A stretch of DNA of 64,000 bases from the human T2T-CHM13v2.0 reference genome, Homo sapiens (GCA_009914755.4 CP086569.2:19552001-19616000); one strand, 5' to 3'; shown: positions 20,938 to 62,464, counted from the first letter of the stretch. Numbers and translations: made by a program. Notes: generated from the sequence alone by a model not told the origin.

Positions 20938-21521
20938 TGTGGGAAAGAGAGTTTCTGGTATGCCAGATAAGTTAGTCTCCCCTGTGTGAGATGCCCATAG
21001 GGAGCCATGGGTGACCTCTGAGGAGAAAAGTCTCCTTATTGCCTTCACGTCTTTATGTCCCAAGACCATAACAGTTCAGCGGCATGCCACAGGTTGCTTG
21101 GGGAACTAATACTCCCTTGAACAGTGGAGTACAGTCAAACATCTTGGCTTCTCCTGAAAACCACTCCCACCCATTTCAGATCTTCAGTTAAAGATCTTAA
21201 GTAGTTTAGAAACACACCTTTGCTCAAGGAAATTCACAGAAACTACCAGTGCTATACATCTTATTGGATGACTCACACATTCTCCTTCACCAATCAATCC
21301 TTTTCCTCATGTCTTCCTACCCCTCGCATCTTTCCTAAGAACAAAGAACTTGTAAACAAATAAGTTGGGAGGAGGCCGAGAGCTTGAGGTCACGAGCAAG
21401 CCTCCCAGGCTCCAGTCCCATCGATCCACCTTTTAAGCTATGATTCTGTCTCTTTCTAATTCCTTTGTCTCCTCTAGACTCAGGATATTTGCCAGATGGT
21501 GTGGGGATGGTTTCCCTATCA
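20938..21521 (+). repeat. Provirus 1, 5' LTR
   Basis: Alignable to 26257-26843 at roughly 85-88%. Starts TGTGGG, ends ...tttccctatca. Confidence 0.85.
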
Positions 21522-21523
21522 TC

Positions 21524-21541
21524 TGGCACCTAACACGGGGC
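21524..21541 (+). promoter_or_regulatory. Primer-binding site, tRNA-Lys-like (tggcacctaacacggggc)
   Basis: Lies 2 nt after the LTR end. It resembles the Lys1,2 PBS TGGCGCCCAACGTGGGGC (14/18 identical). Confidence 0.6.
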
Positions 21542-21690
21542 TCCCTCTAATCTCTACAAATAATCCAGTGAAGGAATGCCAGAATGTGGAAAGTGGAGGA
21601 GACTGACAAAGGAAGCCTGAGTACATTTTCACTTCAAGCTCTACAGGTAAGGAGGGAGCCCAGAGAAATCCAGAGTAACCTCAGGAAAAT

Positions 21691-23400
21691 GTGGGTCAGG
21701 CTGAGACTAAGTTTGCTAATTACTTAAGCCCAGTACGGCAGTTATTGCACTATGGAGGGTTAATTGTGAGTACCCGAAATCTCATGTCTTTGTTCCATCT
21801 CATAGAAAAGTGTTCTCCTTGGTTCCCAGAATATGGAACCATGAATGTAAAAGATTCAGACAAGGTTGGATCAGACTTGAGCACAACTAGAGGGCCATGA
21901 TATTCCCTTCCCCACTTGATCTGTGTGGTCAACAATTAAAACAGCACTGGAGCCTTTCCACACTGAGGAGCAGGAGAAGTTTCAGGATGACATAGGAAAG
22001 TTTAATAATCAGGAGTCTGATGATCAGCAAGTTGAACCATCACAGTCCAGTTTTAAAAAGGGGGATAAAAGGGAAGGTATATATGCTAACCTCCAAAAAC
22101 TTATGAAAGAAACTGTTCCACCTAATGCAGAAACAGGGACACCTACTGCACCTTTAGGGTAAGTTTGGAATGGCCACGCCCACCTCAGCCTTCTGAATGT
22201 TTGGAACAGGACCCTGAGCCGTGGCTTGCCACTCCCATTGTTGCACGCCCCACCATTAACTATGGCGAAGGGAAATTCAGGCTCGCCCAACAGCCAATTA
22301 CAGTGAGGGAGTGATCCAGGTTGGTCTGTCTGTTAATTATGGTAGAGGAATGCTGCCTGCCAGCCCAAATACAAATTATGGCATAGGGATGATCCAGGCA
22401 TCCATTTGCCAGGCATGAGAAATGGAGGATTTGGATGCATGGCAGTTTCCGGTAATTATTTTGCCAGCTGAGGAGCCCAGAGAACATGCTGAAGCACGCT
22501 GAGAGCCATTTCCTTTTAAAATATTGAAAGACTTAAAGTAAGCAATTGGACAATATGGGCCAGATTCTCCTCATGTTCATTCCTTGTTAAAATCTGTGGC
22601 TTATAACCGGTGTTTAATACCTATGGATTGGGAATCATTAGCCCAGTTCACCCTGTCCTTGTCTGAATTTCTCCAATTTAAAACTTGGTGGACTGGTGAA
22701 GAAACAAATCAGGCATGCAGAAATGCTCAACACCAACCTCCCGTTAATATCACATCTGATCAATTGCTTGGAATTGGAGAGACATGGGGAACTATAAATC
22801 AACAGATGGTAATGGGTCGATGAGGCTGTTGATCAGCTCAGAACTATATCCCTAAGAGCCTGGAAAAAAAATTCATGATCCTGGTACCACTTATCCTTCT
22901 TTTAACTCAGTTTGACAGGGTCCAAGGCAGTCTTATCCAGATATTATCTCCCATTTGCAAGATACTGCTCAAAAGGGTATTTCAGATTCTCATGGCAGGA
23001 AACTGCTCGTTCAGCTGCTTGCTTATGAAAATGCTAATACAGAATGTCAGGCAGCACTTAGATCTATTAAGGGAAAGGCAGATCTAAATGAGGAAATATC
23101 TGCAAATGAATGCATTAAAGCCTGTGATGGCATTGGGGGGCACTTACATAAGGCAAGCCTCCTTGTCCAGACAATTGCTGGGCTAAGAGTAACAAAAAAC
23201 ACACAAATGTTCCCTGGATCTTGGTATAATTTTGGACAGATAGGCCTATACAAAAAGAGAGTGTACAAAGAGCCAAATAAGACAAAACTCAGTACCAGGC
23301 CCTGATTCAAAATGGGGCATTCCCAATTTAGAATGGGACATCCCCAACTCCAAATGGAGTGTTCCCAGCCCAGTCTATCCCTGTACAAATGTATAGCAAT
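21691..23400 (+). pseudogene. gag: Provirus 1 gag (MA-CA-NC), decayed by frameshifts and stops
   Basis: The start MGQAETKFANYLSPVRQLL..LFHLIEKCSPWFPEYGT matches the HERV-K gag start MGQTKSK..LFQIIEQFCPWFPEQGT. The CA region reads FKTWW..NAQHQPPVNITSDQLLGIGETWGT and ..AYENANTECQAALRSIKGK..CDGIGG. The C-terminal QNGAFPI..NCPPPQLKV matches the HERV-K gag tail QTGAFPIQPF..NNCPPPQAAV. Confidence 0.85.
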
Positions 23401-24235
23401 TGTCCCCCTCCACAGCTAAAAGTGGGGCAGTAGATTTATGCTGTACAAAAGCTGTATCCCTCCTTCCTGGGGAGCCTCCTAGGAAGGTCCCAATGGGAGA
23501 TTACAGTCCATTGCCAAACGGCACGGTGGGACTTATACAGGGAAGGTCCAGCTTAAAACTAAAGGGAATTCAAGTACATACTGAAGTAGTGGACTCTGAT
23601 TGCCAGGGAGAAATTCAAATAGTTATCTCCCCCACTGTTCCCTGGAGTGCTAATCCAGGTGACAGAATAGCTCAACTGTTGCTTTTACTGTATGTTAAGC
23701 TAGGAGAAAGCTCAGAAAAAAGAACAGGAGGATTTGGAAGCACAAATACAGCAGGCAAGGCTGCCTATTGGGTAAATCAAGTCTCTGACAACAGACCTAT
23801 TTTTACGGTCACTATGCAAGGAAAACAATTTGAGGGTCTGGCTGACACAGGAGCAGATGTGTCGATAATAGTTCTTTATCAATGGGTGAAAACTGGCTCA
23901 AACAAAAGGCCCCAGTGGATCTTGTTGGGGTCAGGACTGCTTCAGAAGTTTTCCAGAGTACTATTATGGTACCATGTCTTGGTCCAGAAGAACAGGAAGG
24001 CACAATACAACCTCTAATTATACACACTCCTGTTAACTTATTGGGGAGAGGTCTGCTTCAACAATGGGGCACAGAAATTTCAATCCCTCCTCAACGGTAT
24101 GGTCAAGCTAGTCAAAAAATAATGTCAAACATGGGCTATGTTCACATAAAAGGCCTAGAAAAGGAGAAGGGCATTACTGAATCCATACACGTTACTGTAA
24201 AAAGTGACCGAAAAGGATTAGGTTACCATTTTTAG
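23400..24235 (+). pseudogene. pro: Provirus 1 pro region: dUTPase, aspartic protease, G-patch
   Basis: ORF 23400-24017 has the dUTPase-like segment ..TVGLIQGRSSLKLKGIQVHTEVVDSDCQGEIQIVIS..GDRIAQLLLL.. and the protease motif LADTGADVSII. ORF 23882-24235 ends in the G-patch [31 protein letters not shown]. Confidence 0.85.
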
Positions 24236-24239
24236 GGGC

Positions 24240-24960
24240 AGTCACTGTTGAGCCTCCAAGCCCTATTCCCTTAAAATGGAAGGCCCAAATTCCTGTTTGG
24301 GTCAAACAGCGCCTGTTTTTTCAGGAATAAAATGGGGACCATACAGGAATTAGTCAAAGAGCAATTAAACAAAGGAAATATTGAGCCCACATTTTCTCCA
24401 CGTAATTTGCCAGTGTTTGTAATAAAGAAAAAATCCGGCAGATGGCGCATGCTAACCGACTTATGAGCAGTCAGTGCAGTCATCCAGCCAATGAGGGTCC
24501 TGAAGCCAGGGCTTCCATCCCCAACCATGATTCCTAGAGTGTCTGTTAATAATTACAGATTTGAAGGATTGCTTTTTAAATATTCCTCTAGTGGAGTCTG
24601 ATTTTGAGAAATTTGCTTTTACTACTCATGCTATGAACAACAGGAACCAGCGGCCAGATATCATTGGAAAGTCCTGTCACAGGATATGTTGAATAGTCCT
24701 ATTATTGGTAAAATTTCTGTGAGGGAGGCTATTCAGCCTGTGAGAGATCAGTTTCCAGGTTCGTATATCATTTATTGTACAGATGATATACTGTGTGCGG
24801 CCGAAAATCGAGACCGACTTATCCATTGTTATTTATATATACAGGAGGTGATATATACAGGAGGTGGTAACCAATGCTGGATTGCTCATAGCACCAGATA
24901 AAATTCAAATGACTACTCCTTTCCAATATTTGGGAATGCAGGTTCAGGAAAGGGCAATTA
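24240..24960 (+). pseudogene. pol: Provirus 1 pol fragment (N-terminal reverse transcriptase only). The rest of pol is deleted
   Basis: RT-like ..[41 protein letters not shown].. and ..SYIIYCTDDILCAAENRDRL... The sequence then passes directly into the env C-terminal region. Confidence 0.7.
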
Positions 24961-25139
24961 AACCCCAAAAGGTTCAATTTTGAAAAGACTCTCTGGAAAC
25001 TTTAAATGATTTTCAAGAAGTATTAGGGGATGTCAATTGGATTCTACCTACTTTGGGAATCCCTACCTATACTCTGTCTAATCTGTTCTCTATTTTAAGA
25101 GGAGACCCTGCTCTCAATAGTAAATGAGAACTGACTCCT

Positions 25140-26245
25140 GAGGCTGACAAAGATGATCGATCCAATTATAAGTCCAGAACACCCAGAATTGTGGAAATTA
25201 ATGATGGCTCAAACCCCATTTCGGGTTTGGAAAGGATAATATAAAACAGACCCATAGTACAAAATTTTGATTTGTTGCAGCCATGACCTGTAATCGGATG
25301 GTCCCACTGCAGAGTTGTGTTAAATCTTTTATATTGGAAGTGAGAAAAATTAATATCCTACCTGACTCTCAAACCATATCATGCCTTAACTGTCACCTTT
25401 TTACCTGCATTATTTCTACCTTTAATAAAGATAACAGCATTTTTACTGGTTAGGGCCCAAGAAGGAGTTTGGATACTTGTTTCCCTCAATAGACCTTGGA
25501 AGGCCTCTCCCTCCATACATATTACCACCATTTAGTAGAAGTACTAAAAAGAATACTTAATAGATCAAGCAGATTCATATTTACTTTAATAGCTGTGCTC
25601 ATGGGCCTTACAGTTGTCACAGCTACTGCTGCTGTTGCTGCTGGTGTTGCCTCCCAGACTTCTATTCCACCTGCGGGCTTTCTGGCAGAAAAATACTTCT
25701 TAGCTTTGGAATTCCCAAAGCCAAATACATCAAAAATTGGCAAATTAAGTTAATAATCTCCATCAAACAGTAATTTGGATGGGACATCAGATTATGAGTT
25801 TGGAGCACAGAATTCAAATGCAATGTGAATGGAATATTTCTGATTTTTTTTATTACTCCTGGCTCTTATAATGCCACCGAACACCACTGGGACTTGATTA
25901 TATGTCACCTACAAGGAAAAGAAGATAATTTAACATTAGATATTGCTAAACTGAAAAAAAAAAAACCCAAAAACTATTTGAGGCATCTCAGGCTCATCTC
26001 AGCCTGTTGCCTGGAGCTGATATTCTTGCTGGAGACGTTGATGGCCTTTCTAATATCAACCACTTAAGGTGGATTAAAATCATAGGTGGATCAATAGTTG
26101 CAAATTTTATTTTGGTTTGTGTCTGTTTATGCTGTTTGTTTTTAGTTTACAGATGTAGATGGCACCTTGGGAGAGAAGCCAGACACTGTGAACTAGCTAT
26201 GATAGCAATGGTGGTTATTAATAAAAAAAAAATTAATAGAGACCA
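25140..26245 (+). pseudogene. env: Provirus 1 env remnant (SU C-terminus, furin site RSSR, fusion peptide, TM), degraded
   Basis: ..[32 protein letters not shown].. is the SU/TM cleavage site plus fusion peptide. The nucleotides are co-linear with provirus 2 env at 50680-51170. It is followed by the polypurine tract aaaagggggaca just before the 3' LTR. Confidence 0.8.
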
Positions 26246-26256
26246 AAAGGGGGACA

Positions 26257-26843
26257 TGTGGGAAAGAGAGTTTCTGGGATGCCAGATGAGCTGGTCTCCC
26301 CTATGTGAGACACCCATGGGGAGCCATGGACAGCCTCTGAGGAGAAAAGTCTCCTTATTGCCTTCATGTCCTTATGCCCCCTGAGCACAACAGCTCAGCA
26401 GCATGCCACAAGTTGCTTGGGGAAATAACACTCCCTTGAAGCAGTGGAGTATAATCAGAGATCTTGGCTTCTCCTGAAACCCACTCCCACCCATTTCAGT
26501 CCCAACAAGTTAAAGATCTTAAGTAGTTTAGACACATGCCTTTGCTCAAGGAAATTCACAGAATCCACCACTGCTATACATATTATTGAATGACTCACAA
26601 CTTCTCCTTCACTGATTAATACTTTCCCTCATGCTTCCTATGCCTCCCATCTGCCCTAAGAACAAAGAACTTGCAAACCAATAAATTAGGTTGAGATCGA
26701 GAGCTCAGGGCTGTGAGCAAGCCTCCAATGGCTCTGGTCCCCTGGACCTGCCTTTTAAACTCTTATTTTGTCTCTTTCTAATTCCTTTGTCTCCGCTGAA
26801 CTCGGGATAGCCTCCGGGTGAGGTGGGGCTGGTTTCTCCAACA
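26257..26843 (+). repeat. Provirus 1, 3' LTR
   Basis: Begins tgtgggaaagagagtttctgggatgcc immediately after the PPT and ends ..ggtttctccaaca, followed by the TSD gctac. Confidence 0.85.
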
Positions 26844-45228: not shown

Positions 45229-45390
45229 TTATGACTCCATATTATTGCAGTGTGCTTTGTTTATTTTATATCATATGTAAATTTTTCAAGTTTTAAGTCA
45301 TTAAATTCATAAATATTTATCATTATTTATGCCACATTTTGTAGCATGCTTGGAAAGGTCTTTCCTCAGATTTATTCTTAGAAGCTGTGA

Positions 45391-45685
45391 CTGGGCACAG
45401 TGGCTCATGCTTGTGATCTCAGCACTTTACGAGGCCCAGGCAGTAGGATCGCTTGAGGTCATGGGTTTGAGAGCAGCCTGCGCAACATAGGAAGACCCTG
45501 TCTGCACAAAAAATTAAAATTAGCTTTACGTGGCAGGTGGTGGTAGTTGCCTCTAGTCACAGTTACTTGGGAGGCTAAAGTGCGAGGACTGCTTGAGCTC
45601 AGGAGTTCGAGGCTGTAGCGAGCCATGATTACACCGCTGCACTCCAGCATTTGTGACAGAGCAAGATTCTGTCTCTACAAAAAAG
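45391..45685 (+). mobile_element. Alu element (shared by both units; unit-2 copy 60130-60425)
   Basis: ctgggcacagtggctcatgcttgtgatctcagcactttacgaggcccaggcagtaggatcgcttgaggtcatgggtttgagagcagcctg... Confidence 0.9.
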
Positions 45686-45797
45686 AAACATACACGATGT
45701 ATAAAATGATACTGTCATAAAACGAAGATTGTGTAAACAGTGTCTGAGCAGTGGCTGAAAGCTCTGAGGAAAAAAAACTGAATGCATTTTTTTTTAG

Positions 45798-45901
45798 GTT
45801 TTTGTATGCATTTATTAAAATAATTAGCAGAATATCATCAAGCTAAAAAGAGTTGTAACATGGAAACACAGACAACTTTGCCATTTATCAGAGATTCTCT
45901 A
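45798..45901 (+). pseudogene. OFD1-like exon 6, frameshifted (..[20 protein letters not shown] against OFD1 [35 protein letters not shown])
   Basis: Acceptor tttttttttag|ggtttttgtatgcatttattaaaataattagcagaatatcatcaagctaaaaagagttgtaacatggaaacacagacaactttgccatttatcagagattctct.., then the donor region ag|gtaatt. The nucleotides are co-linear with the OFD1 cDNA, with indels. Confidence 0.8.
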
Positions 45902-47718
45902 GGTAATTACAGTCTTCTTTCTTAATTTCAATTCTGTTGTTTCCATTTTGAATGAAGGAAGCTACCTGATTTACCAAGTTGTGTGGTTGCTTCTTGAACA
46001 AGAGGGATGCAGCCTGCAGGGAAAAGGGGAATTTACTTTTTCTGGAATCATCCTGGGGGCCCAGCAAGTGCTCTCCAATGTCATTTCCTGGCCTCATGCA
46101 TGCCAGGGCTACATTGGCCAAAGCATGCAAGGATTCAAAGGCCCAAAATCTTCCCTGTTTGTTGAGTTTTACCTCTCTTAACTGGGAGGTCCTTCCTCGT
46201 GTCTTGTCTTAAGTTTACAGCAACCAAGGTAGAAGATTATGGACTATTTGTTTTGCAGAGAACTAGAGAAGTAATTGGCTCATCGCTTCAATTTACAGTG
46301 GAGGAAATCGAGGTCCTCAGAGGGAGGGCAAATTGAAAACGTTCAATCTGCCTCAGAGCAGCTAGTGATGTCCGAATTCTCCCATCCATGATCTAGATTT
46401 TGTGTACTACGCAGCGGGTCGACAATACCATCTTGCCCTTCAGTTTTGCACTCAGTAGAGATGGGAGACAGCTGTTTAAAATGATGTGCTTAATGGATTT
46501 TTGGGCCTTCCTTATTCTTAAATAGTAACAATAACATGTTAGAAGATAAATTCAAAATTTGTATTATCTGACTATGCCTTTAATTAAGTGTAGGTTTAAT
46601 TCCATTAGAAACATTTTACTTGATAATTATCAAGCAGTGCTGTCCAATAGGTGAGCCACATACATAATGTTCAGTTTTCTAGTAGCCACATTGAAAACAG
46701 TAAAAAGAAATAGATAAAATTAGCTTTAACAATATATTTAATCCAATACATCCAAAATATGATTTCAACATGTGTTCAATATAAAAATATGAATGAGATA
46801 TTTCACTTTCTTTTTGCTTTGTTTTTGCACTAAGTTTTGAAATCTCATGTGTTTTTTACATTTAAGGCACATCTCAGTTCAGACTGGTCGCCTTTCCAGT
46901 GTCAATGGCTGTATGTGGCTGGAGGGTCTTGTGTAGGACAGCATTTGAAAAATACAGAAAAGTAGATGAAAAAACATGTCTAAAGTCATGCCTACCAGGG
47001 ACAAACACTATCAATGTTATCGTCTACTTCTGCCAGCCTTTTTCCCACTGGGCATACTTTTTTGGTGTGTTACACATGCTCAAGATTGTACCCTGGGTTC
47101 AGATTTGCACTCTGCTGTGTGGTTGATTTTAGTCCATAGTTGGTTTGAGGCCCACTTGACTAATGGAAGAAAGAGTCAGTCGGTCTCATTTTAGTCCTGG
47201 CTATGCTGTTATTTAATCACTTTTTCAGCTATATTGGTATGTGTTCTTTATCTGCAAAGTGGAGGCATTGAAGTAACATGACCTTTGATTCCTTTACAGT
47301 TATTGTTTTGAATCTGAAGTCAATTTTAACAAAAGTCCGATAAAGAGCTCTCTTCCTTAGCATTTAGTTAATAGGAAGAGACAGCAGTATTTTCTGACTT
47401 TAACTGTACTCTTCAATTTCTATTTCCTCCAACATTTTATGATGAACATTTTGAAACATATAGAAAAGTAGAAAGAATTCTATCAAACACTTATAAACCT
47501 CCCACCTAAATTCCATTATTACATTGGCATTATATATGCTTCATTACTTTTATCTGTTTATCCACACATCCATCTTTCTTTTTTTGTGTATTTTGAAGTA
47601 AATCGCAGACACCCATGCTTTCCCCTAAGTATACTCTTTACCTTTGAAAAAGAAAACTGGCCTCTTACACACCTGACCATGCTTCTATGTCCTCTTTTGA
47701 CATGTTATTTTTTAATAC

Positions 47719-47855
47719 CTGGGAAGTTTCAGCTTATTGATGATCAGTTTGCAGATGCTTACTCTCAGCATATCAAGGGTGAGTCTTTAGAAATAAAGCT
47801 AAATGAATATGAGAGAGAAATAAAAGAGCAAGTTCAGGCAGAAATGTGTCAAAAT
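47719..47855 (+). pseudogene. OFD1-like exon 7. The reading frame is intact but the acceptor AG is mutated to AC (ttaatac|ctggg). It lies 51 bp upstream of provirus 2
   Basis: ..[41 protein letters not shown], then |gtaagc. OFD1 reads [41 protein letters not shown]. Confidence 0.85.
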
Positions 47856-48678
47856 GTAAGCTTTACCTTGTTATTGTTAACAAGAGTGACATTTTTGTTT
47901 GTCTTCTGTGAGAAAAAGTGTATCTGGGTTGCCAGTTGAGTTTGTCTCCCCTGTGTGAGACACCCATGGCGAGCCATGAGTGGCCTCTGAGGAGAAAAGT
48001 CTCCTTATTGCCTTCATGTCTTTATGCCCTGAGAGCGTAACCACTCAGAGAGCATATCCACTCAGTGGCATTCTACAGGTTCCTCGGGGAGATAACACTC
48101 CCTGGAAAGAGTGGAGTGTAATCAAACGTCTTGGCTCCTCCTGAAACCTGCTCCCACCTGCTTCAGTCCCAATATGTTAAATATCTTAAGTAGTTTAAAC
48201 ACACACCTTTACTCAAGAAAATTCACAGAAACTGCCACTGCTACACATCTTATTGAATGACTCATGACTTCTCCTTCATTGATTAATCCTTTTCTTCATC
48301 CCTTCCTCCCCCCTCCCATCTGACATAAGAACAAAGAGCTTGTAAACCAACAAATTGGGTGGAGCCTAAGAACTCTGGGCCATGAACAAGCCTTTGACAC
48401 TGCAGTTCCCTTAACCCACCTTTTAAACACTGATTCTATCTCTTTCTAACTCCTTTGTCTGCACGGGACTCAGGGGACCCACTGGGTGGTGAGGGGATGG
48501 TTTCCCCATGTGGCACACAACACAGTGCTCCAAGTAATCTCTACAAATAATCTGGTAAAGAAATGACAGAGAGTGGAAAGTGGAGGACGCCTGATGAAGG
48601 AGGCCCGAGTACATTTTCACTTCAAGCTCCGTGGGTAAGTAGGGCACTCAGAGAATTCCAGGGTAACCTCAAGAAAAT

Positions 48679-50060
48679 ATAGGTCAGACTGAAAGTAAGT
48701 TTGCCAATTATTTAGCCTGCTGCAGCAGTTATTGTGCCTCAGAGGGATAATTGTGAGTACCCAAAATCTCACTTCTTTGTTCCATAACCTAGAAAAGTTT
48801 TCTCCTTGGTTCCTGGAATATGGAACCATGAATGTAGAAGATTGGGATAAAGTTGGATGAGACTTAAAACAAGCACAGCAAGAGGGCCATGATATTCCCT
48901 TCTCTGCTTGGTCTGTGTGGTCAGCAATTAAAACTGCACTGGAGCCCTTCCACCCAGAGGATGAGGAGGAGTTTCAGGGTGACATAGAAAAGTTTAATAA
49001 CCATGAGTCTGACGATCAGCAAAGTGAACCATCACAGTCTAGTTTTAAATAAGGGGAAGAAACCAGAAGCTCTATATGCTAACCCCCAAAAAACTTATGA
49101 AAGAAAGAGTTCCACCTACAGCAGAAACAGTGCCAACTACTGCGCCTTTATGGGAACGTCTGGAACGGCCAGCTCCGCCTTAGCCTTATGAATTGTTGTT
49201 AAAGGAGCCTGTGACTTGGCTTGCCGCTCCCATTGTTGCACACCCAGCCATTAACTATGGCAAAAGGAAGCTTCAGGCTAACCCAACAGCCAGTTACAGT
49301 GAGGGAATGATCCAGGCTTGTCCACCTGTTAATTGTGGTAAAGGAATGCTTTCATCCAGCCCAAATACAAATTATGGCACAGAGACAATCAAGGCATCTA
49401 CTCGCCAGGCACGAGAAATGGGGGATTTGGATGCTTGGCCGTATCCAGTAATTATTTTTCCTGCTGAGGAGCCTGGAGAACATCCTGAGGCACTCTGGGA
49501 GCCATTTACTTTTAAAATATTAGAAGACTTAAAGCAAGCAATTGGAAAATAGGGGCCAAATTTTCCTTATGTTCATTCCTTGTTACAATCTGTGGCTTAT
49601 AACTGGCATTTAACCTATGGAATCTCTCCAATTTAAACCCTGGTGGATGGATGAAGCAACAAATACGGCACACAGAAATGCTCAAGCTCAACCTGCCATT
49701 GATATCACATCTGATCAATTGCTTGGAATCGGACAGGCATGGGGTACTGTAAATGAACCCATGGTAATGGGTGATGAGGCTGTTGGTCAGTTCAGAACTC
49801 TATGCCTAAGAACCTGGGAAAACATTCATGACCCTGGTACTACTTATCCTTCTTTTAACTCATTTCAACAGTGTCCAAGGGAGACTTATCCAGATTTTAT
49901 CGCCTGTTTCCAAGACGCGGCTCAAAAGACTGTTTCAGATTCTCATGCCAGGAAAGTGATTATTCAGCTGCTTGCTTATGAAAATGCTAATACAGAATGT
50001 CAGGCAGCAATTAGACTTAGTAAGGGAGAGGCAGATCAAAATTACACTTACTGGGTCTAC
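48679..50060 (+). pseudogene. gag: Provirus 2 gag (start codon lost; CA region largely open)
   Basis: Reads ..NYLACCSSYCASEG..EKFSPWFLEYGTMNVED.. (the gag N-terminus). ORF 49193-49552 is the p15-like middle, and ORF 49617-50129 (170 aa) contains the CA major-homology region. Confidence 0.8.
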
Positions 50061-50099
50061 ATTCCATTCCCACTACTGATTAGGCCTGTTGCGTGGTTA

Positions 50100-51760
50100 G
50101 ACCCTCCTGGTGGATGGACCAACAGATAAGCAAGGTCCTACTCATCTAGAGCAGGCGGGAATGTTGGTGAATGTTTCCATTGATTATCGCTTTCCTCCCA
50201 TCTGCCTGGGGCTGGCAGCAGGATGTTTAAATTATGATAAAGTGGGACATAAATGTCCCTACACAAAATGCATCAAAAGCCTCTATTCATGCAATCAATG
50301 AAGCAACATTTTAATCTTTGGACACTATTAAATACTTGAGCACGGCTATGTTATGACACGTTGCCAGATTACTGAATTTAAACCTAATATGAATCCCTGC
50401 CCTAGGCAGGCCACTAAATGGCCTGAAAAGTTAGAGGTGCTAACTTGGGAAGATTGTATTGCAAACAGTGCTGCGCTACTGTAAAATAATTCCTATAACA
50501 TCGCCATTGATTGGGTCCCTAGGGGACACTTTGCAGTAAATTTTACTGGCCAGCGCAAAGATTGTAGAGGGACTCCTGCAAATGACTACCCAGATAATGC
50601 ACCAAAATTATGTAGAAGAATTGAAACAAATTACCCTATTAAGTGGGAGGAGAATGGTATGGCTCCTCCAAGCCCAAAAATGATCGATCCAGTTATGAGA
50701 CCAGAACATCCAGAACTGTGGAAATTAATGATGGCTCAAACCCCAGTTTGGATTTGGATAGGAGAATATAAAACAGAGACTCATAGTAAAAAACTTTCAT
50801 TTGCTGTAGCCATGACCTCTAATCAGACGGTCCCATTGCAGAGTTTTGTTAAACCTCCTTTTATGTTGGCAGCCGGGAAAATTAATTTCCTACCTGACTC
50901 CGAAACCATACCCTGCCTTAACTGTCACCTTTTTACCTGCATTAATTCTACCTTTAATAAAGATAATAGCATTTTTACTGGTTAGGGCCTGAGAAGGAAT
51001 TCAGATACTTGTTTCCCTCAATAGACCTTGGGAGGACTCTCCCTCCATACATATTATCACTGAAGTACTAAAAGGAATATTTAATAGATCAAAGAGATTC
51101 ATATTTACTTTAATAGCTGTGGTCATGGGCCTTATAGCTGTCACAGCTACTGCTTCTGCACTGTTGCTGCTTTGCACTCTTCTATTCAAACTGCGGGCTT
51201 TGTGGATAGTTGGCAGAAAAATTCTTCTAAGCTTTGGAATTCCCAAAGCCAAGTAGATCAAAAATTGGCAAATCAAATTAATGATCTCTGTCAGACAGTA
51301 ATTTGGATGGGGGATTGGACTACTGGCTTGGAGTGTAGAAGTCAAATGCAATGTGATTGGAATACTTTGGATTTTTGTGTTTCTCCTAGCCCTATAATGT
51401 CACTGAACATCATTGAGAGATGATTAGACATCACCCACAAGGAAAAGAACATAGTTTAACACTAGATATTGCCAAACTGAAAAAACAAGTTTTTGAGTCA
51501 TCTCAGGCTCATCTTATCCTGTTGCCTGGAGCTGATATTCTTGCTGGAGCCACTGATGGCTTTTCTAATACCATTCCTTTAAAGTAGATTAAAACCATAG
51601 GTGGATCAACAATTGCAAATTTTATTTTGGTTTGTGTCTGCTTATGCTATTTGTTTTTAGTCAACAGATGCAGACAGCCCCTTGGGTGAGAGGCCAGACA
51701 CCAGCCATGATAGCAATGGCAGTTATTAATCAAAAAATTAATAAAGACAAAAAAGAGAGA
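50100..51760 (+). pseudogene. env: Provirus 2 env (SU and TM; multiple stops and frameshifts)
   Basis: The gag sequence passes directly into env, so pro and pol are absent. The TM hallmarks match HERV-K env: RFIFTLIAV fusion peptide, ..[19 protein letters not shown].., CDWNT.DFC, EHHWD-like, and the membrane-spanning tail ..AMIAMAVINQK. Confidence 0.8.
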
Positions 51761-52637
51761 CATGTGGAAAGGAGAGTTTCTGTGGTGCCAGTTGAGTTGT
51801 TCTCCCCTATGTGAGACATCCATGGGGAGCCATGGGTGGCTGCTGAGGAGAAAAGTCTCCTTATTGCCTCCATGTCTTTATGCCCCCAGAGCATAAGCAC
51901 TCAGCGGCATTCCTCAGGTTGCTCAGGGAGATAACACTCCCTTGAAGCGGTGGAGTATAATCAAACATCTTGGCTCCTCCTGAAAGCTGCTCTCACCCAT
52001 TTCAGTTCTGATAAGTTAAAGATCTTAAGTAGTTTAGACACATGCCTTTGGCTCAAGGAAATTCACAGAAACTGCCACTACTATGTAGCTTATTGAAAGA
52101 CTCACGAGTTCCTCTACACTGATTAATCCTTTTCCTCATCCCTTCCTTCTGCTCCCATCTGTCCTAAGATCAAAATGCTTGTAAACCAACAAATTGGGTG
52201 GAGCCCAGGAACTCTGAACGGTGAGCAAGCCTCCGATGCTTTGGTCCTCTGGAACAGCCTTTTAAATACTGATTCTATCTCTTTCTAACCCTTTGTCTCC
52301 ACCAGACTCAGGGTACGTGCTAGGTGGTGTGGGGCTGGTTGTCTCAACAGCCTTCTAAAGTCTTAATCTAAGGTATAGAAAAAAAAAAAAACTAGGAATT
52401 TTAATAAAGAATGGGATACTCCACTATTGTGCACATTACTTTTATTTCTGTTGACATTTGTTTATGCCTTTTGAGTGAATCCTACAAATATAGTGAGTGA
52501 GATAAAACTAAAGATGAACTAAATGTAATATATTTGGACAGAGCATTAATGTTGAGCCTGGATGTGAAGACAATATTTGTTACTCTTCTTAGAGTATAAT
52601 AGTTAAAATTTTTAATTTTTTTGTGATCAATTTGCAG

Positions 52638-52809
52638 ATAAACTTCTGTTAAGCTGCTGAGATAGCAAAAATTAAAATAAAGCAAAAGGAAAGTATGGGA
52701 AAAATTAACTGTGTTCAGGAAAGATTTTGAGAAGGCTTGTCAGTCGGAGCCTGAAGCCATCATTTTTTGGGAAAAGAGTATCCTTGAGAGAATTCAAAAG
52801 CATCAAGAA
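52638..52809 (+). pseudogene. OFD1-like exon 8/9, corresponding to OFD1 ..[58 protein letters not shown]. Its 5' half is frameshifted
   Basis: Acceptor tcaatttgcag|. ..gctgctgagatagcaaaaattaaaataaagcaaaaggaaagtatgggaaaaattaactgtgttcag is co-linear with OFD1 ..gatactgagatagcaaaaattaaaatggaagcaaaaaagaaatatgaaaaagaattaaccatgtttcag. Then MFRKDFEKACQSEPEAIIFWEKSILERIQKHQE, then donor |gtggta. Confidence 0.8.
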
Positions 52810-54065
52810 GTGGTATTTACAAATATTTTACTGTGTAACTATTTCCTGCAGCTATTAGCAGGTTGGTTCAAGATCCAGGAAAGAGATCACACAATTGGGA
52901 TGACAAGGTCCCAGGAGAGCAATAGGAATTGTGGTAAAGAGTGCAAAGAAAAAGAAGGGTGGCCCTTGAAATATATACACAGATTTGCTTCCTCTGGGAC
53001 AAGTGGAAAAGGAAGAGTGTCAGAGGTGAACAGTCAAGTTGGGATTAAGAGAAACACACCCTAAATAAGCTCCCATCTTCTCAGGCAGATTAGAGCATTA
53101 GATCATGGGTTTTAGGAGCAGCTTAGAGGTGCAGAGTAGCTCATGGGAGTAACAGAAGAACAGCTGTTTAAAGCAGACAGGACTGATCACTTGTATTGAG
53201 GGCCCAGCTGTAGTTGGGGGAGGCTGAAATTAAATGAGACCAAACCATGTGCTTGTAGGTGAGTTTATTTTTTATTTTTATTTTTTGGCAGGTCTGGGGA
53301 GGAATTGTAAGCATCTGTCTCTTCTGCACTTTTCCGTGAGGTTGAAAAGATGGAGATGTTGAAGGACTGGAGCTTTGCAGAGCCTAACTTATTTGATGTG
53401 AGAATGGCAGCCCATTTAACTGCAGATTCTGGGCTTATCTTGCATAGTGAAGGGAAGCAGAGGAGAGGGCAAGTGACTGCTACACCAGGAGGAATGTGAG
53501 TGTTAAGTAGCCGTCTCAGGGATCAAAGACTAGATCCAAAGAGACTGGCAGGTGGAATTATAACAATTGTCCAAGAGTAGAGAATTGCAGGATTAGGTTT
53601 CAGGTGGAAACTGGAAACAAAAATGCACTGTGCTGTCATTGGATGGAGCCATGGAAATGAGGAGAGTTCAAGGTCTCTGGGGTAAAGGAGTCATCAGGGC
53701 TGCAAATGTCATCCATGTGGTCTTTTGAGCTGGTCATCCCGGGAGTAAACGGACAAGAGAGGGTGAGGATGAGCAGTGGCAGGGATTCTATGTTGGCAAG
53801 TGGGAGTGAATCTCTTTTTTCTTAAGAAAGCATATTCTGTTTCTGAGGGCATGTCTTAGACCACACTGGATTTACAGCAGTATTTTTGGCCTGCATCGCA
53901 AACTGCAGCTGCCAGATGTTAAAAGTAGCAAGGCTTTACCCTAGCGTCAAGTCTTGCTTGGGGCTTCTCAATGATACCCAGTTGTTTAATGCTAAGGGCA
54001 CACCCTCTGCAAATTTATATAACATTCCTGGGAATTGGCCTTGCTCCAGCTGTAAAAATGATGTA

Positions 54066-54212
54066 CTGGATGTGAAGAGAGTATTTGTTGCTCTTCTTAT
54101 AGCATAATAGTTAAAATTTTTAAGTTTTTGTGATCAATTTGCAGGTAAAGTTTTGTAAAGCTCCTGAGATAGTAAAAAATAAAAATAACATAAAGCAAAA
54201 AGAAAGTATGGG
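54066..54212 (+). repeat. Junction insert of the tandem duplication: a ~147-bp copy of 52557-52703. It includes the acceptor and 5' half of the OFD1-like exon 8/9 (at 54150-54212)
   Basis: ctggatgtgaagagagtatttgttgctcttcttatagcataatagttaaaatttttaagtttttgtgatcaatttgcaggtaaagttttgtaaagctcctgagatagtaaaaaataaaaataacataaagcaaaaagaaagtatgggaa aligns to 52557-52703. Unit-1 homology to unit 2 ends at 54061 and unit-2 homology to the start of unit 1 (39125) begins at ~54215. Confidence 0.75.
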
Positions 54213-57200
54213 AAGAAATTAGAAATTTCTTGTTTCCATAGTTTACGACAAATTTACCCTTAATTATGGTGCATAGTGTACACTTAGACGTTAGAATTTT
54301 AGAAATCCAACACAATTTTGGAACATCTGTTACTATTATTCACTAAAATTTAACTTAAAGGAAATTGGACATCATTTTGGCAATACCATGTGACTAAACA
54401 AGCCCTGTATATGTCTTTTCTTAATGTTTCAGAAGTCCTCTCACCACCCAGAAAGCCAGGCATTAGGAAGGACAATTTTGCAACTTGAATTATGGTTTTA
54501 GGATGCCTGTTAAATGTTAGAGGTTTAGTACACTCGGTTTTATATAGGAATCCAGATTTCCACAAATTACTTGTTTTGCCAAAATGATGGCTCAAAGGGT
54601 AAAAATCATTTATTAGTGTTTATTATGATGTGACTTGTCATTTGAGTATGACATCCTGCTCAAAGCCAAATTTTACCCTTTCATCAGTTTGTTAATGTTA
54701 ACCTCAATTTGCTTAAATTAAATCTTATAGATCCTTTCATTTAACCTCAACCAATTTGACCATGAGGTGAAATATTTACAAACCTTTCAAAACTCTTTTA
54801 CTAAATGGCAGATTCGTTTCTTAAGATCTCATTGGTATTCCTTTATTTCAATGCTAAGGTTATAAAAAAGACCATACAATAACCTTTTGAGTTTAGTTAA
54901 TGTTCACTGTGAACATTTAGCAACTTTCATTTTTGATGAACACCCTGGTTAATAGGCCATTTTACTTACATACATGGTGTGGATCCTAGAACTCAGACAG
55001 AAGTGCAGATAAAGTGTGAGGTTTCAGCCTCTCACTCCATGTATCCCAGGTTTTACCAACCTGTAAAGCAGGTGAGAAACAACCTTGGAACATTTAGCAA
55101 ATCTGGTGTCTAAATTGAATCATTTAAATGACCTATTTTCATTTTGACAACACTTGCATCTTACCAGTAATTCTCAAGACTATATTACTTAAACTCACGT
55201 GAACTAAAACATATTCAAGTGCTTACTTCTCTTTAAGACAATTAATTAGAGTTTGCTTTTATAGGCATTACACACACCACATATATAGCGACACAAACGG
55301 AAAATTCAGAGATTTTTTTTATGTGCCAGTTTCTTAACTGGATTACTGGCTTCAGGTTGTAGCCCTTGGAGGAATAGGATCATTAATTTGCAGTTTTTAG
55401 GGAGTAATAAGCAGACACAGCAGAAGGCAATTAATCCATCCCCTTTGGGAGTCTTGTTTCTTAGTGGAGGGAGCGGGGGTGAGGATGTTTCTCTATGTTT
55501 TAGGTAGACAAGAGCATGCTTCTCTGATTTATAACTACTATTAGCCATTTCATACAGGGCATTTTCTACCTAGTTATTACACACCAAAGAGGTCTCATAA
55601 TGTGAAGGAACTTGATATCCTCAATACTCACAAAGGTAAATAACACAATGCATAACAGTACGGAGCCTTTGGTATTGGGAGGGAAACATCTGCTTTCAAT
55701 TTGGGGGGTTTCATGAGCAAAACATGTGTGTTTGGTTTTGTTTTGTTTGCGTGTGTGTTTTCTCATATGGAGAATTTGGCACCTACTCTGTTTTTCCCCA
55801 GGAGTCCCGTGCTATCAGAAGTTACGTTAGGGCCTCTCAGGCGTGCATTAAGAGGGTGAAGACAAAAAATGGGGAAAAATAATTCAGTCTACTGAGAAGA
55901 AAAGACCATTTTTTTCAGAAAAAAATTTTAAATGTATCAATAACTTGAATATCTACTTTTAATTAAGCTGAACATTTTTAAGAAAATTCTTAAAAAATTT
56001 CTTATTACTTAACTTTAGCCATGTCAAGTAGTTAAGATTTTTGGTTTTCGAACTTTAGAAAATGTAACCTCACAGATAAAACCAATCTAGGCTATGACTT
56101 AACCGCAAGTGTCCAAGGTATTTTCAGAGGAATGATAGCTTTTGAATCTTTCATTGCAAAACTGTGAGGGAGACAGTGAAAGAGAGTTGACCTAAACAAA
56201 TCTATTTCACTTCCCACCCTCAAGCTGTCTTTGCCCATCTTTGGGTTAGGCTGAGCCAACTTTAGGAGGAGCCTTGTATACCGTCTGTAGTCTAAAACAA
56301 AGAGGATAACAGCTGCTTCCCAAGATATACTTTCCTCTTGCCTGGAAACCAGAACAATAAGCTAGCCACAAGGTTAGGGACCATGGCTTAGGTGTCAGGG
56401 AGGCAGAGGCTACAAGATTTTGACCTTCCCTAAACTGCTTTCAACATCAGTGCTTGAGATATTTTGTAAACCCTGTGTTTGACAGATCGGCTGGGACCAC
56501 CCGGATTGAAAAACTGGCTTATCAGATTTTGTGGCCCTCTTCTATGAACTGACTTATGGGAAGAAAAAACCACCTTTCTAAAATGGCAGAGACTAAAACA
56601 AAGTATTGCCACATGGTTACAGGTTATGTTCCCGAGGACATGGAACAAGATGTAGGACTGTAGCCCAGTTTGTTACTGGCCATTAAGTTGGTCTGGCTTG
56701 AACAGCAGGCTCATGGGGTCCTGGGCCTTCACCCCACTTAAGATACCCTTTTATTGATAGAACCGTACAGAAGGACACGCAAAGCACACAAATTGTCTAC
56801 AACTTAAGACCAAACTCACAAATCTTTTTTTGTTATTTATAAATTTACCTAGAATATAAACAATAATACTCTTTTTTCTTTGTTACCAGTTTGCTCAGTG
56901 AGAGAGAAGCCAAAAGCCAAATGGGTAAGAAATTTTTCCCTTTTGCCAGCATATCAGGCTTCTAAGTTTCCTTTCTTCTAGCTCAACTGTCAGCCAAGCA
57001 TTTTAAGGTTTGGAAAATTAACTTTTCCCAAGTTGGACAAACATTATGAAAGAGACAGATGCCATTTTAAATCACACACACAAAAAATGAAAAACACTAT
57101 AGAAAGGAGTTCCAGTTAAGCTTTTCAAGAGGTATTGCCCCTTTTCCTATTTGGAATAGTACTTCCCCTATTTATTTGCCTACCCTAGTTGCTCTTTTCC

Positions 57201-57667
57201 CTTTTCACCTACTATAGAAGACATATTGCTCATTTCCACAATTTTCTTTTGCTTGCACAGCTGCCTCTTTTAGCTGAAGTTAAGGTTTAGCTTAGGAGGA
57301 TAAAAACATTCCTTCATAAGAGGTCAAATACCTAAGTTAAATTTTGGAAAGCTTCTATATGCCTATCAGGATCATCAGAAATTTGGCGTAAGCCTCCCTT
57401 TACTTTCCAAATTTCCTCCAATGAGAAGAAAACTTGAAGGGGCCCCAAATAAGGGAATACTCAGATGGTTCCCCTGAAACTTGCTTCTCTAATTTTGAGA
57501 AATTTTTCTCTTTGGGCTTGCCTGATATGATCGCTAAATGGACTTGGTTATTTTGCAACACTTACAAAGGTGTAGTAAGAAGGCCATTCCATTGTGCAAA
57601 AGTAAATAAGAAATTTTCCTTCAAAGTTTCAGGGCTGAATGAGTCCAGTTGCTTTAAAATACTCCCA

Positions 57668-62045: not shown

Positions 62046-62184
62046 GGGCCATGAGGAAGCCTCCAATACTCCAGTCCCCCGGACCTGCCTTTTCAACACT
62101 TATTCGGTCTCTCTCTTTCTATCAGCTTTGTCGCCGCTAGACTCAGGGTACCTGCTGGGTGGTGTGGGGGTGGTTTCCCCAACA
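62046..62184 (+). repeat. 139-bp HERV-K LTR 3'-terminal remnant in unit 2, followed by the intact flank/TSD gtcttc. This is the footprint of provirus 2 after a ~5.2-kb deletion
   Basis: ctgggccatgaggaagcctccaatactccagtcccccggacctgccttttcaacacttattcggtctctctctttctatcagctttgtcgccgctagactcagggtacctgctgggtggtgtgggggtggtttccccaaca aligns to the last ~140 bp of the provirus-2 LTRs. Upstream homology to unit 1 stops at ctacttctg (unit 1 47024-47032). Confidence 0.8.
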
Positions 62185-62464
62185 GTCTTCTAAAGTCTTA
62201 ATCTTTGGTATATCAAAAACAACCTAGAAATTTTAATAATGGGATACTCTACCATTCTGCACATTATTTTTATTTATGTTGACATTTGTTTATGACTTTT
62301 GAGTGAGTCCTACAAATACAGTGAGTGAGATAAAACTAAAGATGAAGTAAATGTAATGTACTTGGACAGAGCATTAATGTTGAGCCTGGATGTGAAGAGA
62401 GTATTTGTTACACTTATTGGAGTGTAATAGTTAAAATTTTTAAATTTTTGTGATCAATTTGCAG

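What the first reader, a model, noticed from the sequence alone, without database searches (positions are those of the whole stretch)
47907..52349. Second provirus of the same HERV-K family inside OFD1-like intron 7, with a complementary (gag + env only) deletion and a start-codon-dead gag
Provirus 2 has the same LTR type, a PBS (tggcacacaacacag) and a near-duplicate TSD (gtcttc/gccttc). It sits 51 bp downstream of OFD1-like exon 7 and ~290 bp upstream of exon 8/9. gag passes directly into env around 50060-50110, so pro/pol are missing. Provirus 1 keeps pro and the pol N-terminus but has lost most of env SU. The gag start is ATAGGTCAG. The CA-domain ORF (49617-50129, 170 aa) and long env TM stretches are still recognisable. 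Two same-family, same-orientation proviruses 21 kb apart, each of which could in principle complement the other's deletion, is an unusual local configuration. It is also a substrate for provirus-provirus ectopic recombination.
Basis: seen in the sequence. Interest (0 to 1): 0.55.

Follow-up and report, generated by a model that had tools for sequence, protein, structure and literature searches.

The report
Known dead HERV-K(HML-9) provirus on Y
This is a long-dead, internally deleted endogenous retrovirus (HERV-K group HML-9) inside an intron of a Y-linked OFD1 pseudogene; it is already catalogued in the human genome literature and is an ordinary genomic fossil.

Summary
Window 47907-52349 is a 4,443-bp provirus: two ~590-bp LTRs (18% diverged), a 6-bp target-site duplication, a Lys-like primer binding site, gag (MA + most of CA) fused directly to env (mature SU + TM), and no pro or pol.

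It is not new. 3,549 nt of it (all of the published record I retrieved) are 100% identical to the HERV-K(HML-9)/HERVK14C provirus "Yq11.222", chrY:18,622,534-18,626,952 in GRCh38 (Jia et al. 2022, PMC9178832). That paper reports the same structure, the same PBS and an LTR age of about 48 My. The host "OFD1-like" gene is one of the intron-containing OFD1 pseudogenes on the Y.

The four LTRs pair by provirus (98.8% bootstrap), so proviruses 1 and 2 are independent insertions. "Complementation" is not supported. Neither copy has RNase H, integrase or the env signal peptide. Both are full of stops and frameshifts, and their longest shared exact tract is 47 bp.

Small additions:
- The gag/env deletion junction lies in a 15-nt gag/env homology and was in frame.
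- A paralogous segmental-duplication copy keeps a 137-bp LTR stub followed by a perfect GTCTTC, which confirms the original duplication.
- Provirus 1 is absent from that published catalogue.

Interest is low.

The parts
47901..47906 (+). 5' target-site duplication, GTCTTC
   Evidence: Sequence. The same hexamer follows the LTR stub in the paralogous copy at 62184-62189.
47907..48509 (+). 5' LTR (LTR14C type, 603 bp), with a private 17-bp tandem duplication at 48032-48065
   Evidence: Alignments. The reverse complement of the 17-bp insert occurs in the published record.
48511..48528 (+). Primer binding site, TGGCACACAACACAGTGC (a decayed tRNA-Lys-like PBS)
   Evidence: Identical to the PBS listed for Yq11.222 in Table S5 of PMC9178832.
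48679..50042 (+). Truncated gag. The start codon is mutated to ATA (48679-48681). MA (Gag_p10) lies at 48708-48945 and CA (Gag_p24 and p24_C) at 49496-50028. NC is absent. At least 3 frameshifts and several stops.
   Evidence: Pfam; PDB HERV-K CA, E = 1.5e-48; tblastn against HML-2 Gag residues 27-499; 88% identity to full-length HML-9 gag.
50028..50042 (+). Deletion junction. The 15 nt GAGGCAGATCAAAAT are shared between gag (…GGCAGATCtAAAT…) and env (…GAGGCAGATCAAAAT…), and the fusion is in frame (…GEAD|QNYTYW…). About 4.2 kb is missing: NC, pro, pol and the env signal-peptide region.
   Evidence: Comparison with full-length HML-9 gag and env from Dataset S1 of PMC9178832. Table 3 of that paper gives gag 75%, pro 0, pol 0, env 85%.
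49617..50129 (+). 170-aa ORF. It is a chimeric remnant: the C-terminal part of CA fused to the first ~30 residues of mature SU.
   Evidence: the ORF listing; translation; PDB hits.
50043..51740 (+). env without its signal peptide. SU starts at NYTYW (50040-50054). The furin-like site RSKR is at 51086-51097. TM covers fusion peptide to membrane anchor (about 51098-51690). At least 11 stops and at least 2 frameshifts.
   Evidence: Pfam HERV-K_env_2 and GP41; PDB HERV-K SU/TM 9mla, E = 1e-65; tblastn; motif coordinates.
51749..51760 (+). Polypurine tract, AAAAAAGAGAGA
   Evidence: Sequence. Provirus 1 has AAAAGGGGGA at the equivalent place.
51763..52349 (+). 3' LTR (587 bp)
   Evidence: An exact reverse-complement match to the start of the published record.
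52350..52355 (+). 3' target-site duplication, GCCTTC (one T>C change from GTCTTC)
   Evidence: Sequence. The ancestral state is given by the paralogous copy.
62047..62189 (+). Paralogous remnant in the second unit of a tandem segmental duplication: the last 137 bp of the same LTR (62047-62183) followed by a perfect GTCTTC (62184-62189). The rest of the provirus and exon 7 were removed by a ~5.2-kb deletion with TCTG microhomology.
   Evidence: Self-BLAST; sequence; alignments; three-way site counts 15/15/10.
20938..26843 (+). Provirus 1, same family and orientation: LTR, gag, dUTPase-PR-G-patch, RT to the thumb, then the C-terminal 55% of env, then LTR. Its own TSD is GCTAC.
47724..47855 (+). 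OFD1 pseudogene exon 7, 51 bp upstream of the provirus
   Evidence: tblastn with human OFD1 (query sequence recalled from memory; the match validates itself): 77% identity over residues 175-221.

Best explanation
Window 47907-52349 is the human endogenous retrovirus locus HERV-K(HML-9)/HERVK14C "Yq11.222" (GRCh38 chrY:18,622,534-18,626,952, minus strand).

A betaretrovirus-like HML-9 element integrated in sense orientation into intron 7 of the Y-linked OFD1 copy, in an ancestral catarrhine, some tens of millions of years ago. The integration made a 6-bp GTCTTC target duplication.

The provirus lacks about 4.2 kb: NC, pro, pol and the env signal peptide. The deletion joined gag and env in frame across a 15-nt stretch that the two genes share (GAGGCAGATCAAAAT). 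It therefore arose by short-homology recombination. Either reverse transcriptase switched template before integration, or a microhomology-mediated deletion occurred afterwards. Which of the two is not resolved.

Soon after integration the surrounding OFD1Y segment, about 13-15 kb, was tandemly duplicated. The second unit later lost exon 7 and almost all of the provirus through a 5.2-kb deletion with TCTG microhomology. That left a 137-bp LTR stub and the intact target duplication.

Since then the element has decayed neutrally: dead start codon, many stops and frameshifts, CpG depletion. It has no coding capacity and no demonstrated function. Provirus 1, 21 kb upstream, is an independent insertion of the same family from about the same period.

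Shown here: identity with the published locus, the anatomy, the junction homology, independence of the two insertions, and the paralogous stub. Inferred: timing, the mechanism of the deletion, and absence of function.
For: Identity with the published locus:
- 3,549 nt of the published Dataset S1 record chrY_18622534_18626952 are an exact reverse-complement match to window 48793-52341.
- The Yq11.222 PBS in Table S5 equals window 48511-48528.
- Four strings specific to provirus 2 each occur once in that record.
- Published structure: gag 75.21%, pro 0, pol 0, env 84.75%, both LTRs present. Published LTR divergence 0.194, giving 48.5 My. My values are gag about 76%, env about 84%, and LTR p-distance 0.180 / K2P 0.209.

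Family:
- LTR length matches the 587-bp LTR14C reference.
- 88% identity to a full-length HML-9 gag and 82% to a full-length HML-9 env.
- CA and SU/TM match solved HERV-K structures.

Junction and independence:
- Junction homology is shown.
- LTR quartet: 20, 9 and 5 informative sites; 98.8% bootstrap for pairing by provirus.
- The two proviruses have different TSDs and non-homologous flanks.

Paralogous stub: perfect TSD and star-like three-way site counts of 15/15/10.

Host gene: an intron-containing OFD1 pseudogene with internal stops, consistent with the 18 OFD1Y pseudogenes reported on the human Y (PMC3193505).
Against: - LTR-based ages of 45-52 My at 0.2%/My exceed the ~39 My entry date for HML-9 quoted in PMC11209481. 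The faster male-driven Y mutation rate and CpG decay probably inflate the estimate, but I did not test this.
- The duplicated block downstream of the stub is only 6% diverged, against 22% for the stub itself and 13% for the upstream block. The simple "one old duplication" history therefore needs a later gene-conversion or re-duplication step.
- Absence of function is inferred from decay only. No expression data were available.
Confidence: 0.93

Rival explanations
1. Proviruses 1 and 2 are not independent insertions. They would be products of duplication, gene conversion or recombination of a single provirus, so the LTRs would not pair by provirus.
For: - The two are the same family and orientation, only 21 kb apart, in a region rich in segmental duplications.
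- 9 informative sites group 5' with 5' and 3' with 3'.
- The 3'-3' LTR distance (K2P 0.214) is close to the within-provirus distances of 0.194 and 0.209.
Against: - 20 informative sites and 98.8% of bootstrap replicates pair the LTRs by provirus.
- Several of the 9 conflicting sites are alternative decay products (CA versus TG) of ancestral CpGs.
- The TSDs differ (GCTAC versus GTCTTC) and there is no flank homology.
- The internal deletions have different breakpoints.
Confidence: 0.03
2. The pair is a functionally meaningful complementing set, or was one. Provirus 2 would supply Gag and Env and provirus 1 would supply Pro and Pol, allowing particle formation or retrotransposition in trans.
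For: The deletions overlap only partly. P2 retains the SU region that P1 lacks, and P1 retains NC (in part), dUTPase, PR and RT, which P2 lacks. The original P2 fusion was in frame.
Against: - No RNase H or integrase domain is detectable in either provirus.
- The env signal peptide is absent from both.
- Both gag start codons are mutated: ATA in P2 and GTG in P1.
- There are at least 11 stops in P2 env and at least 13 in P1 env HSPs, plus several frameshifts.
- P2 Gag lacks NC and so could not package RNA (established retrovirology).
Confidence: 0.02
3. The 4.2-kb gag-env deletion was already present in the RNA or cDNA that integrated. Provirus 2 would then be a non-autonomous HML-9 variant made by RT template switching and mobilised in trans, not a full-length provirus deleted later in the genome.
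For: - The junction lies in a 15-nt gag/env homology and preserves the reading frame. This is typical of RT template switches.
- Other HML-9 copies share a different internal deletion (pro 64% / pol 6%) at unlinked loci: 6p12.3, 19q13.2 and the Y. Deleted HML-9 variants were therefore mobilised, or at least spread.
Against: - No other human HML-9 copy in the published table has the gag 75% / pro 0 / pol 0 / env 85% pattern.
- Microhomology-mediated genomic deletion gives the same junction.
- The stub in the paralogous copy carries no information on this point.

This is a sub-question of the best explanation rather than a competitor to it.
Confidence: 0.4

Closest known systems
HERV-K(HML-9) provirus 'Yq11.222', GRCh38 chrY:18,622,534-18,626,952 (Jia et al. 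2022, Retrovirology 19:11, PMC9178832)
   Same: It is the same locus. There is a 100% match over 3,549 nt, with the same PBS, the same gag/env-only structure and comparable LTR divergence.
   Different: The paper calls the locus intergenic. It does not mention the OFD1 pseudogene intron, the TSD, the homology at the deletion junction, the paralogous LTR stub or the neighbouring provirus 1.
The common pol-deleted HML-9 variant (pro ~64%, pol ~6%, env ~99%) at 6p12.3, 19q13.2 and several Y loci
   Same: Same family, internally deleted, and enriched on the Y.
   Different: The breakpoints differ. That variant keeps NC, part of pro and the whole of env. Provirus 2 loses NC through the env signal peptide. 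Provirus 1 keeps RT and loses the N-terminal 45% of env. Neither matches the common variant.
HERV-K(HML-2) (LTR5/HERVK), the best-studied HERV-K group
   Same: Betaretrovirus-like organisation. CA and SU/TM are clearly homologous: PDB 6ssj/32yy at E ~1e-48 and 9mla at E ~1e-65. Both make a 6-bp TSD, and both are known to have deletion variants (type 1 / type 2).
   Different: Only ~40-53% amino-acid identity to an HML-2 Gag/Env query recalled from memory. LTRs are ~590 bp, against ~970 bp for HML-2 (the HML-2 figure is from memory). The element is far older and has no intact ORFs.
HERV-K14C LTR-mediated deletions on the Y (TTTY13 / AZFb), as cited in PMC11209481 (Sin et al. 2010, 2011)
   Same: Same family, same chromosome, and the same idea that provirus or LTR copies can mediate ectopic recombination.
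   Different: No rearrangement between proviruses 1 and 2 is seen here. The two are only ~80% identical, with a longest exact tract of 47 bp.

Membership tests
HERV-K(HML-9) / HERVK14C-LTR14C | LTR of LTR14C type, about 587 bp | tested here: met
   The LTRs are 603 bp (including a 17-bp private duplication) and 587 bp. The reference LTR is 587 bp. The 3' LTR is an exact match to the published HML-9 record.
HERV-K(HML-9) / HERVK14C-LTR14C | Internal sequence homologous to HERVK14C gag and env | tested here: met
   88% nucleotide identity to a full-length HML-9 gag segment and 82% to a full-length HML-9 env segment from Dataset S1. Provirus 1 is 87.5% identical to the same gag segment.
HERV-K(HML-9) / HERVK14C-LTR14C | Listed member of the published group (locus identity) | tested here: met
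   Exact reverse-complement match of 3,549 nt to record chrY_18622534_18626952, and an identical PBS in Table S5. Provirus 1 is not listed.
HERV-K supergroup (class II, betaretrovirus-like) | tRNA-Lys primer binding site | tested here: inconclusive
   TGGCACACAACACAGTGC matches 12 of 18 positions of the tRNA-Lys(CTT) PBS TGGCGCCCAACGTGGGGC, which I recalled from memory. Some of the mismatches (two CG>CA) are CpG decay. The published analysis typed only 2 of 11 HML-9 PBSs as Lys and left Yq11.222 untyped.
HERV-K supergroup (class II, betaretrovirus-like) | Betaretroviral Gag_p10 matrix, HERV-K-type Env, and dUTPase plus G-patch in the pro frame | tested here: met
   P2 has Gag_p10 (E = 2e-21) and HERV-K_env_2 (E = 1e-28). 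The dUTPase, RVP and G-patch are present in P1 and deleted in P2.
HERV-K supergroup (class II, betaretrovirus-like) | 6-bp target-site duplication | tested here: met
   GTCTTC and GCCTTC flank P2. The paralogous stub is followed by a perfect GTCTTC.
HERV-K(HML-2) | High identity to HML-2 Gag and Env, with an LTR5-type ~970-bp LTR | tested here: not met
   CA is ~53% and Env ~40-53% identical in amino acids to an HML-2 query recalled from memory. The LTRs are ~590 bp.
Coding-competent or mutually complementing provirus pair | Between them, intact gag, pro, pol (RT, RNase H, IN) and env with a signal peptide | tested here: not met
   No RNase H or integrase domain in either provirus. The env signal peptide is missing from both. 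Both start codons are dead, and there are many stops and frameshifts.
OFD1Y pseudogene family (intron-containing Y-linked OFD1 copies) | OFD1 exon order with introns retained, disabled reading frame, Y-linked | tested here: met
   Exons 2 to 8 lie in order on the + strand, with internal stops and frameshifts. Y linkage follows from the identity with chrY:18.62 Mb. The family is described in PMC3193505.

The most novel reading that the evidence does not exclude
The only mildly new reading concerns the locus history, not the provirus itself.

The 137-bp LTR stub with an intact TSD lies in the second unit of the tandem duplication. It is equidistant from both LTRs of provirus 2 (site counts 15/15/10). 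This would time-stamp the first amplification step of this OFD1Y segment to shortly after the HML-9 integration, in an early catarrhine. The much higher identity downstream (94-100%) would then record later Y-Y gene conversion.

In addition, provirus 1 would be an HML-9 provirus missed by the published human catalogue. By extrapolation it lies at about chrY:18,648,032-18,653,937.
Probability: 0.45. Interest if true: 0.2.

Novelty: already known. Interest (0 to 1): 0.1.

Why it matters
It matters little. The element is a neutral fossil that is already annotated and published.

Its modest uses are threefold:
- It is a clean worked example of an ERV internal deletion at a gag/env short homology.
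- It is a dated marker for the order of events (integration, then segmental duplication, then deletion, then gene conversion) in a Y-chromosome region near HSFY.
- It shows that BLAT-based HERV catalogues can miss equally old neighbours such as provirus 1.

Nothing suggests a biological activity of the provirus pair.

Tried and rejected
- Pfam scans given as DNA references failed because of stop codons. I re-ran them on frame translations with stops masked as X.
- I considered that P1 and P2 derive from one provirus by duplication or conversion. I rejected this on the LTR quartet and bootstrap, the different TSDs and the non-homologous flanks.
- I considered functional complementation. I rejected it because RNase H, IN and the signal peptide are missing from both and both ORF sets are destroyed.
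- I considered HML-2 membership and rejected it.
- I tried to read Flockerzi et al. 2005 (PMC548434) on the HERV-K14 families, but it is not held.
- A literature search linking HERV-K14C, OFD1 and TTTY gave nothing specific to this locus.
- I looked for provirus 1 and for the LTR stub in the published HML-9 datasets. Provirus 1 strings were absent in both orientations. The stub's terminal 27-mer occurs only in another provirus record, where it reads as a consensus-like LTR end.
- I did not use the large protein-database, structure-prediction, Rfam or bacterial/phage collection tools. They could not add to an exact literature match for a primate ERV.
Full report
**1. What is there**

The window is primate DNA: canonical Alu elements are present, for example at 33169-33462. 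A self-comparison of the window finds four copies of one ~590-bp repeat. They bound two elements, 20938-26843 (provirus 1, P1) and 47907-52349 (provirus 2, P2).

P2 has all the hallmarks of a retroviral provirus.
- The LTRs are 603 and 587 bp. Both begin TGTG; the 3' LTR ends in CA, while the 5' LTR end is slightly eroded. They are 82% identical.
- The flanking hexamers are GTCTTC (47901-47906) and GCCTTC (52350-52355).
- A TGG-initiated primer binding site lies 2 bp after the 5' LTR (48511-48528).
- A purine tract lies just before the 3' LTR (51749-51760).

Pfam scans of the three forward frames, with stops masked, give these domains in order:
- Gag_p10 (48708-48945)
- Gag_p24 (49496-49836)
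- Gag_p24_C (49839-50028)
- HERV-K_env_2 (50104-50566)
- GP41 (51166-51397)

No protease, reverse transcriptase, RNase H or integrase is found.

The CA segment matches solved HERV-K capsid structures (E = 1.5e-48). The env segment matches the solved HERV-K surface and transmembrane proteins (E = 1e-65 and 1e-31), starting at residue 4 of the mature SU construct, NYTYW.

- The gag start is ATA GGT CAG at 48679-48687.
- The 170-aa ORF at 49617-50129 exists.
- The OFD1 exon ends 51 bp upstream of the provirus.
- The next exon starts 289 bp downstream.

**2. The neighbour and the host gene**

P1 carries Gag_p10, p24, p24_C, dUTPase, RVP, G-patch, RVT_1 and RVT_thumb. At 25148 it jumps into the C-terminal ~55% of env.

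A tblastn with human OFD1 places exons 2 to 8 in order on the + strand, at 28686, 29839, 32914-33135, 45797, 47724 and 52681. I recalled the OFD1 query from memory, but the matches validate themselves. The exons contain internal stops and frameshifts.

This is therefore an intron-containing OFD1 pseudogene. It is of the kind known in 18 copies on the human Y (PMC3193505). Both proviruses lie in sense orientation relative to it.

**3. Identity with a published locus**

LTR length and organisation pointed to the LTR14-type HERV-K groups. The human HML-9 survey (Jia et al. 2022, PMC9178832) lists provirus #14, 'Yq11.222', chrY:18,622,534-18,626,952, minus strand, 4,419 bp. Its reported coverage is 5' LTR 96.8%, gag 75.2%, pro 0%, pol 0%, env 84.8%, 3' LTR 98.5%. 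That is exactly the P2 architecture.

The match is exact at sequence level.
- Their Table S5 gives the Yq11.222 PBS as tggcacacaacacagtgc, identical to window 48511-48528.
- Four P2-specific strings (PBS, gag/env junction, 17-bp LTR insert, an env segment) each occur once, as reverse complements, in their Dataset S1 record.
- The 3,549 nt of that record that I retrieved are an exact reverse-complement match to window 48793-52341.

The window is therefore human GRCh38 chrY. Position x maps to 18,622,534 + (52,341 - x). Extrapolating this beyond the record is an assumption.

The published LTR divergence for this locus is 0.194, giving 48.5 My, the oldest in the group. I obtain p = 0.180 and K2P = 0.209.

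Both P1 and P2 are 87-88% identical to a full-length HML-9 gag segment, so the 'same family' claim is correct. P1-specific strings are absent from the published provirus and solo-LTR datasets.

**4. The deletion**

I compared P2 with full-length HML-9 gag and env taken from the same dataset.
- P2 follows gag up to 50042 and env from 50028.
- The 15 nt in between (GAGGCAGATCAAAAT) are present in both genes. In gag the sequence reads …AAGGCAGATCtAAATGAGG… (K-A-D-L-N-E). In env it reads …GAGGCAGATCAAAATTAC… (E-A-D-Q-N-Y, the end of the signal peptide).
- The homology is in the same codon phase, so the fusion was originally in frame: MA, then most of CA, then mature SU, then TM.
- About 4.2 kb is missing: the C-terminal end of CA, NC, pro, pol and the env leader.

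A junction of this kind indicates short-homology recombination. The mechanism was either RT template switching before integration or a microhomology-mediated genomic deletion afterwards.

No other human HML-9 copy in the published table shares this pattern, so the two cannot be distinguished here.

**5.

In a four-LTR alignment the parsimony-informative sites split as follows:
- 20 sites group the LTRs by provirus.
- 9 sites group 5' with 5' and 3' with 3'.
- 5 sites support the third topology.

Several of the 9 conflicting sites are CA/TG alternatives, the two decay products of an ancestral CpG. A four-point bootstrap gives 98.8% for pairing by provirus.

Within-provirus K2P distances are 0.194 for P1 and 0.209 for P2. 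Between-provirus distances are 0.214-0.249.

The TSDs differ and the flanks are not homologous. P1 and P2 are therefore independent insertions of closely related elements, made at about the same time.

**6. Why the 'complementing pair' reading fails**

- P1's pol ends after the RT thumb and P2 has no pol. RNase H and integrase are therefore missing from both.
- P2's env begins at HML-2 residue ~96 and P1's at ~326. Neither has a signal peptide.
- P2's Gag lacks NC.
- Both start codons are mutated: ATA in P2 and GTG in P1.
- P2 env has at least 11 stops and at least 2 frameshifts. P2 gag has at least 3 frameshifts.
- The two proviruses are ~80% identical, with a longest exact tract of 47 bp. 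That makes them poor substrates for present-day homologous recombination.
- LTR-mediated deletions are documented for this family on the Y (cited in PMC11209481). No such rearrangement is seen here.

A rough estimate (my calculation) asks how many pairs would fall within 27 kb if about 70 HML-9 insertions were spread uniformly over the genome. The expected number is about 0.04. The proximity is therefore mildly unusual. ERV retention on the non-recombining Y (7 of 23 human HML-9 proviruses are Y-linked) makes it unremarkable.

**7. An extra witness: a paralogous LTR stub**

The self-comparison shows a tandem segmental duplication.
- 39125-47032 matches 54221-62046 (87% identity).
- 52222-54061 matches 62052-63886.
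- The second unit repeats OFD1 exon 6 (60498-60683) and exon 8 (62509-62649).
- It lacks the equivalent of 47033-52221, which is exon 7 plus almost all of P2.

At the junction, the flank …CTACTTCTG is joined to the last 137 bp of the LTR (62047-62183). This is followed by a perfect GTCTTC and the same downstream flank. The breakpoints share TCTG.

This has two consequences. First, it confirms that the original target duplication was a perfect GTCTTC, and that the 3' copy next to P2 mutated T>C. Second, it shows that the duplication came after the integration.

Over the 132 alignable sites, the three-way counts are:
- the stub agrees with the 5' LTR against the 3' LTR at 15 sites
- the stub agrees with the 3' LTR against the 5' LTR at 15 sites
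- the stub differs from both at 10 sites

This is a star pattern, so the duplication followed integration closely.

The block immediately downstream is much more similar between the two units. Identity runs from 72% in the stub through 85% and 92% to 96-100%. That suggests later gene conversion or re-duplication. A third copy of the 5' part of exon 8 sits at the unit boundary (54066-54221).

**8. Verdict**

The structural interpretation is right. The functional and 'unusual' interpretation is not supported.

The element is an already catalogued, neutral, ~35-50-My-old HERV-K(HML-9) fossil in an OFD1Y pseudogene intron.

The additions from this analysis are minor:
- the junction homology and the in-frame fusion
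- the paralogous stub and the order of events it implies
- the OFD1 pseudogene context
- the absence of P1 from the published catalogue

Noticed in passing
window 39125-47032 vs 54221-62046; 52222-54061 vs 62052-63886: A tandem segmental duplication of the OFD1 pseudogene segment from exon 6 to exon 8. The upstream block is 13% diverged and the downstream block only 6%. The second unit lacks exon 7 and the provirus, apart from a 137-bp LTR stub.
   Followed up: yes
window 52212-54061 vs 62042-63886: Identity between the two duplication units rises along the block: 72% in the LTR stub, then 85%, then 92%, then 96-100% over ~1 kb. It then stops abruptly at 54061/63886. This looks like a later gene-conversion or re-duplication tract laid over an old duplication.
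   Followed up: partly
window 54066-54221: A third, 86%-identical copy of the intron 7 / exon 8 boundary piece (matching 52558-52707 and 62386-62531). It sits exactly at the boundary between the two duplication units and is probably the original duplication junction.
   Followed up: partly
window 20938-26843: Provirus 1 is HML-9-like: 87.5% identical to a full-length HML-9 gag, with the same LTR type. None of its diagnostic strings occur in the published human HML-9 provirus or solo-LTR datasets, so it seems to have been missed by that BLAT-based catalogue. It has a GTG in place of the gag ATG, a ~127-bp gap in the NC region (23292/23295) and a pol(RT thumb)-to-env deletion at 25148.
   Followed up: partly
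window 48032-48065: A 17-bp tandem duplication (AGAGCGTAACCACTCAG / AGAGCATATCCACTCAG) private to the 5' LTR of provirus 2. It accounts for the 603 vs 587 bp length difference between the LTRs.
   Followed up: yes
window 61470-61706 vs 61715-61945: A local ~235-bp tandem duplication (85% identity) inside the second duplication unit, just upstream of the deletion junction. It corresponds to a single copy at 46704-46928 in the first unit.
   Followed up: no
window 1824-2658 vs 17527-18484; 36771-37377 vs 44590-45225 and 59366-59970: Other dispersed repeats at 73-80% identity, some of them inverted. They are presumably older interspersed elements and were not classified.
   Followed up: no
window 28686-33135, 45797-45904, 47724-47864, 52681-52812: The OFD1 pseudogene exons carry in-frame stops and frameshifts. 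Both HML-9 proviruses lie in sense orientation relative to the gene, which is unusual for ERVs in functional genes. This is consistent with the host copy already being, or then becoming, non-functional.
   Followed up: partly
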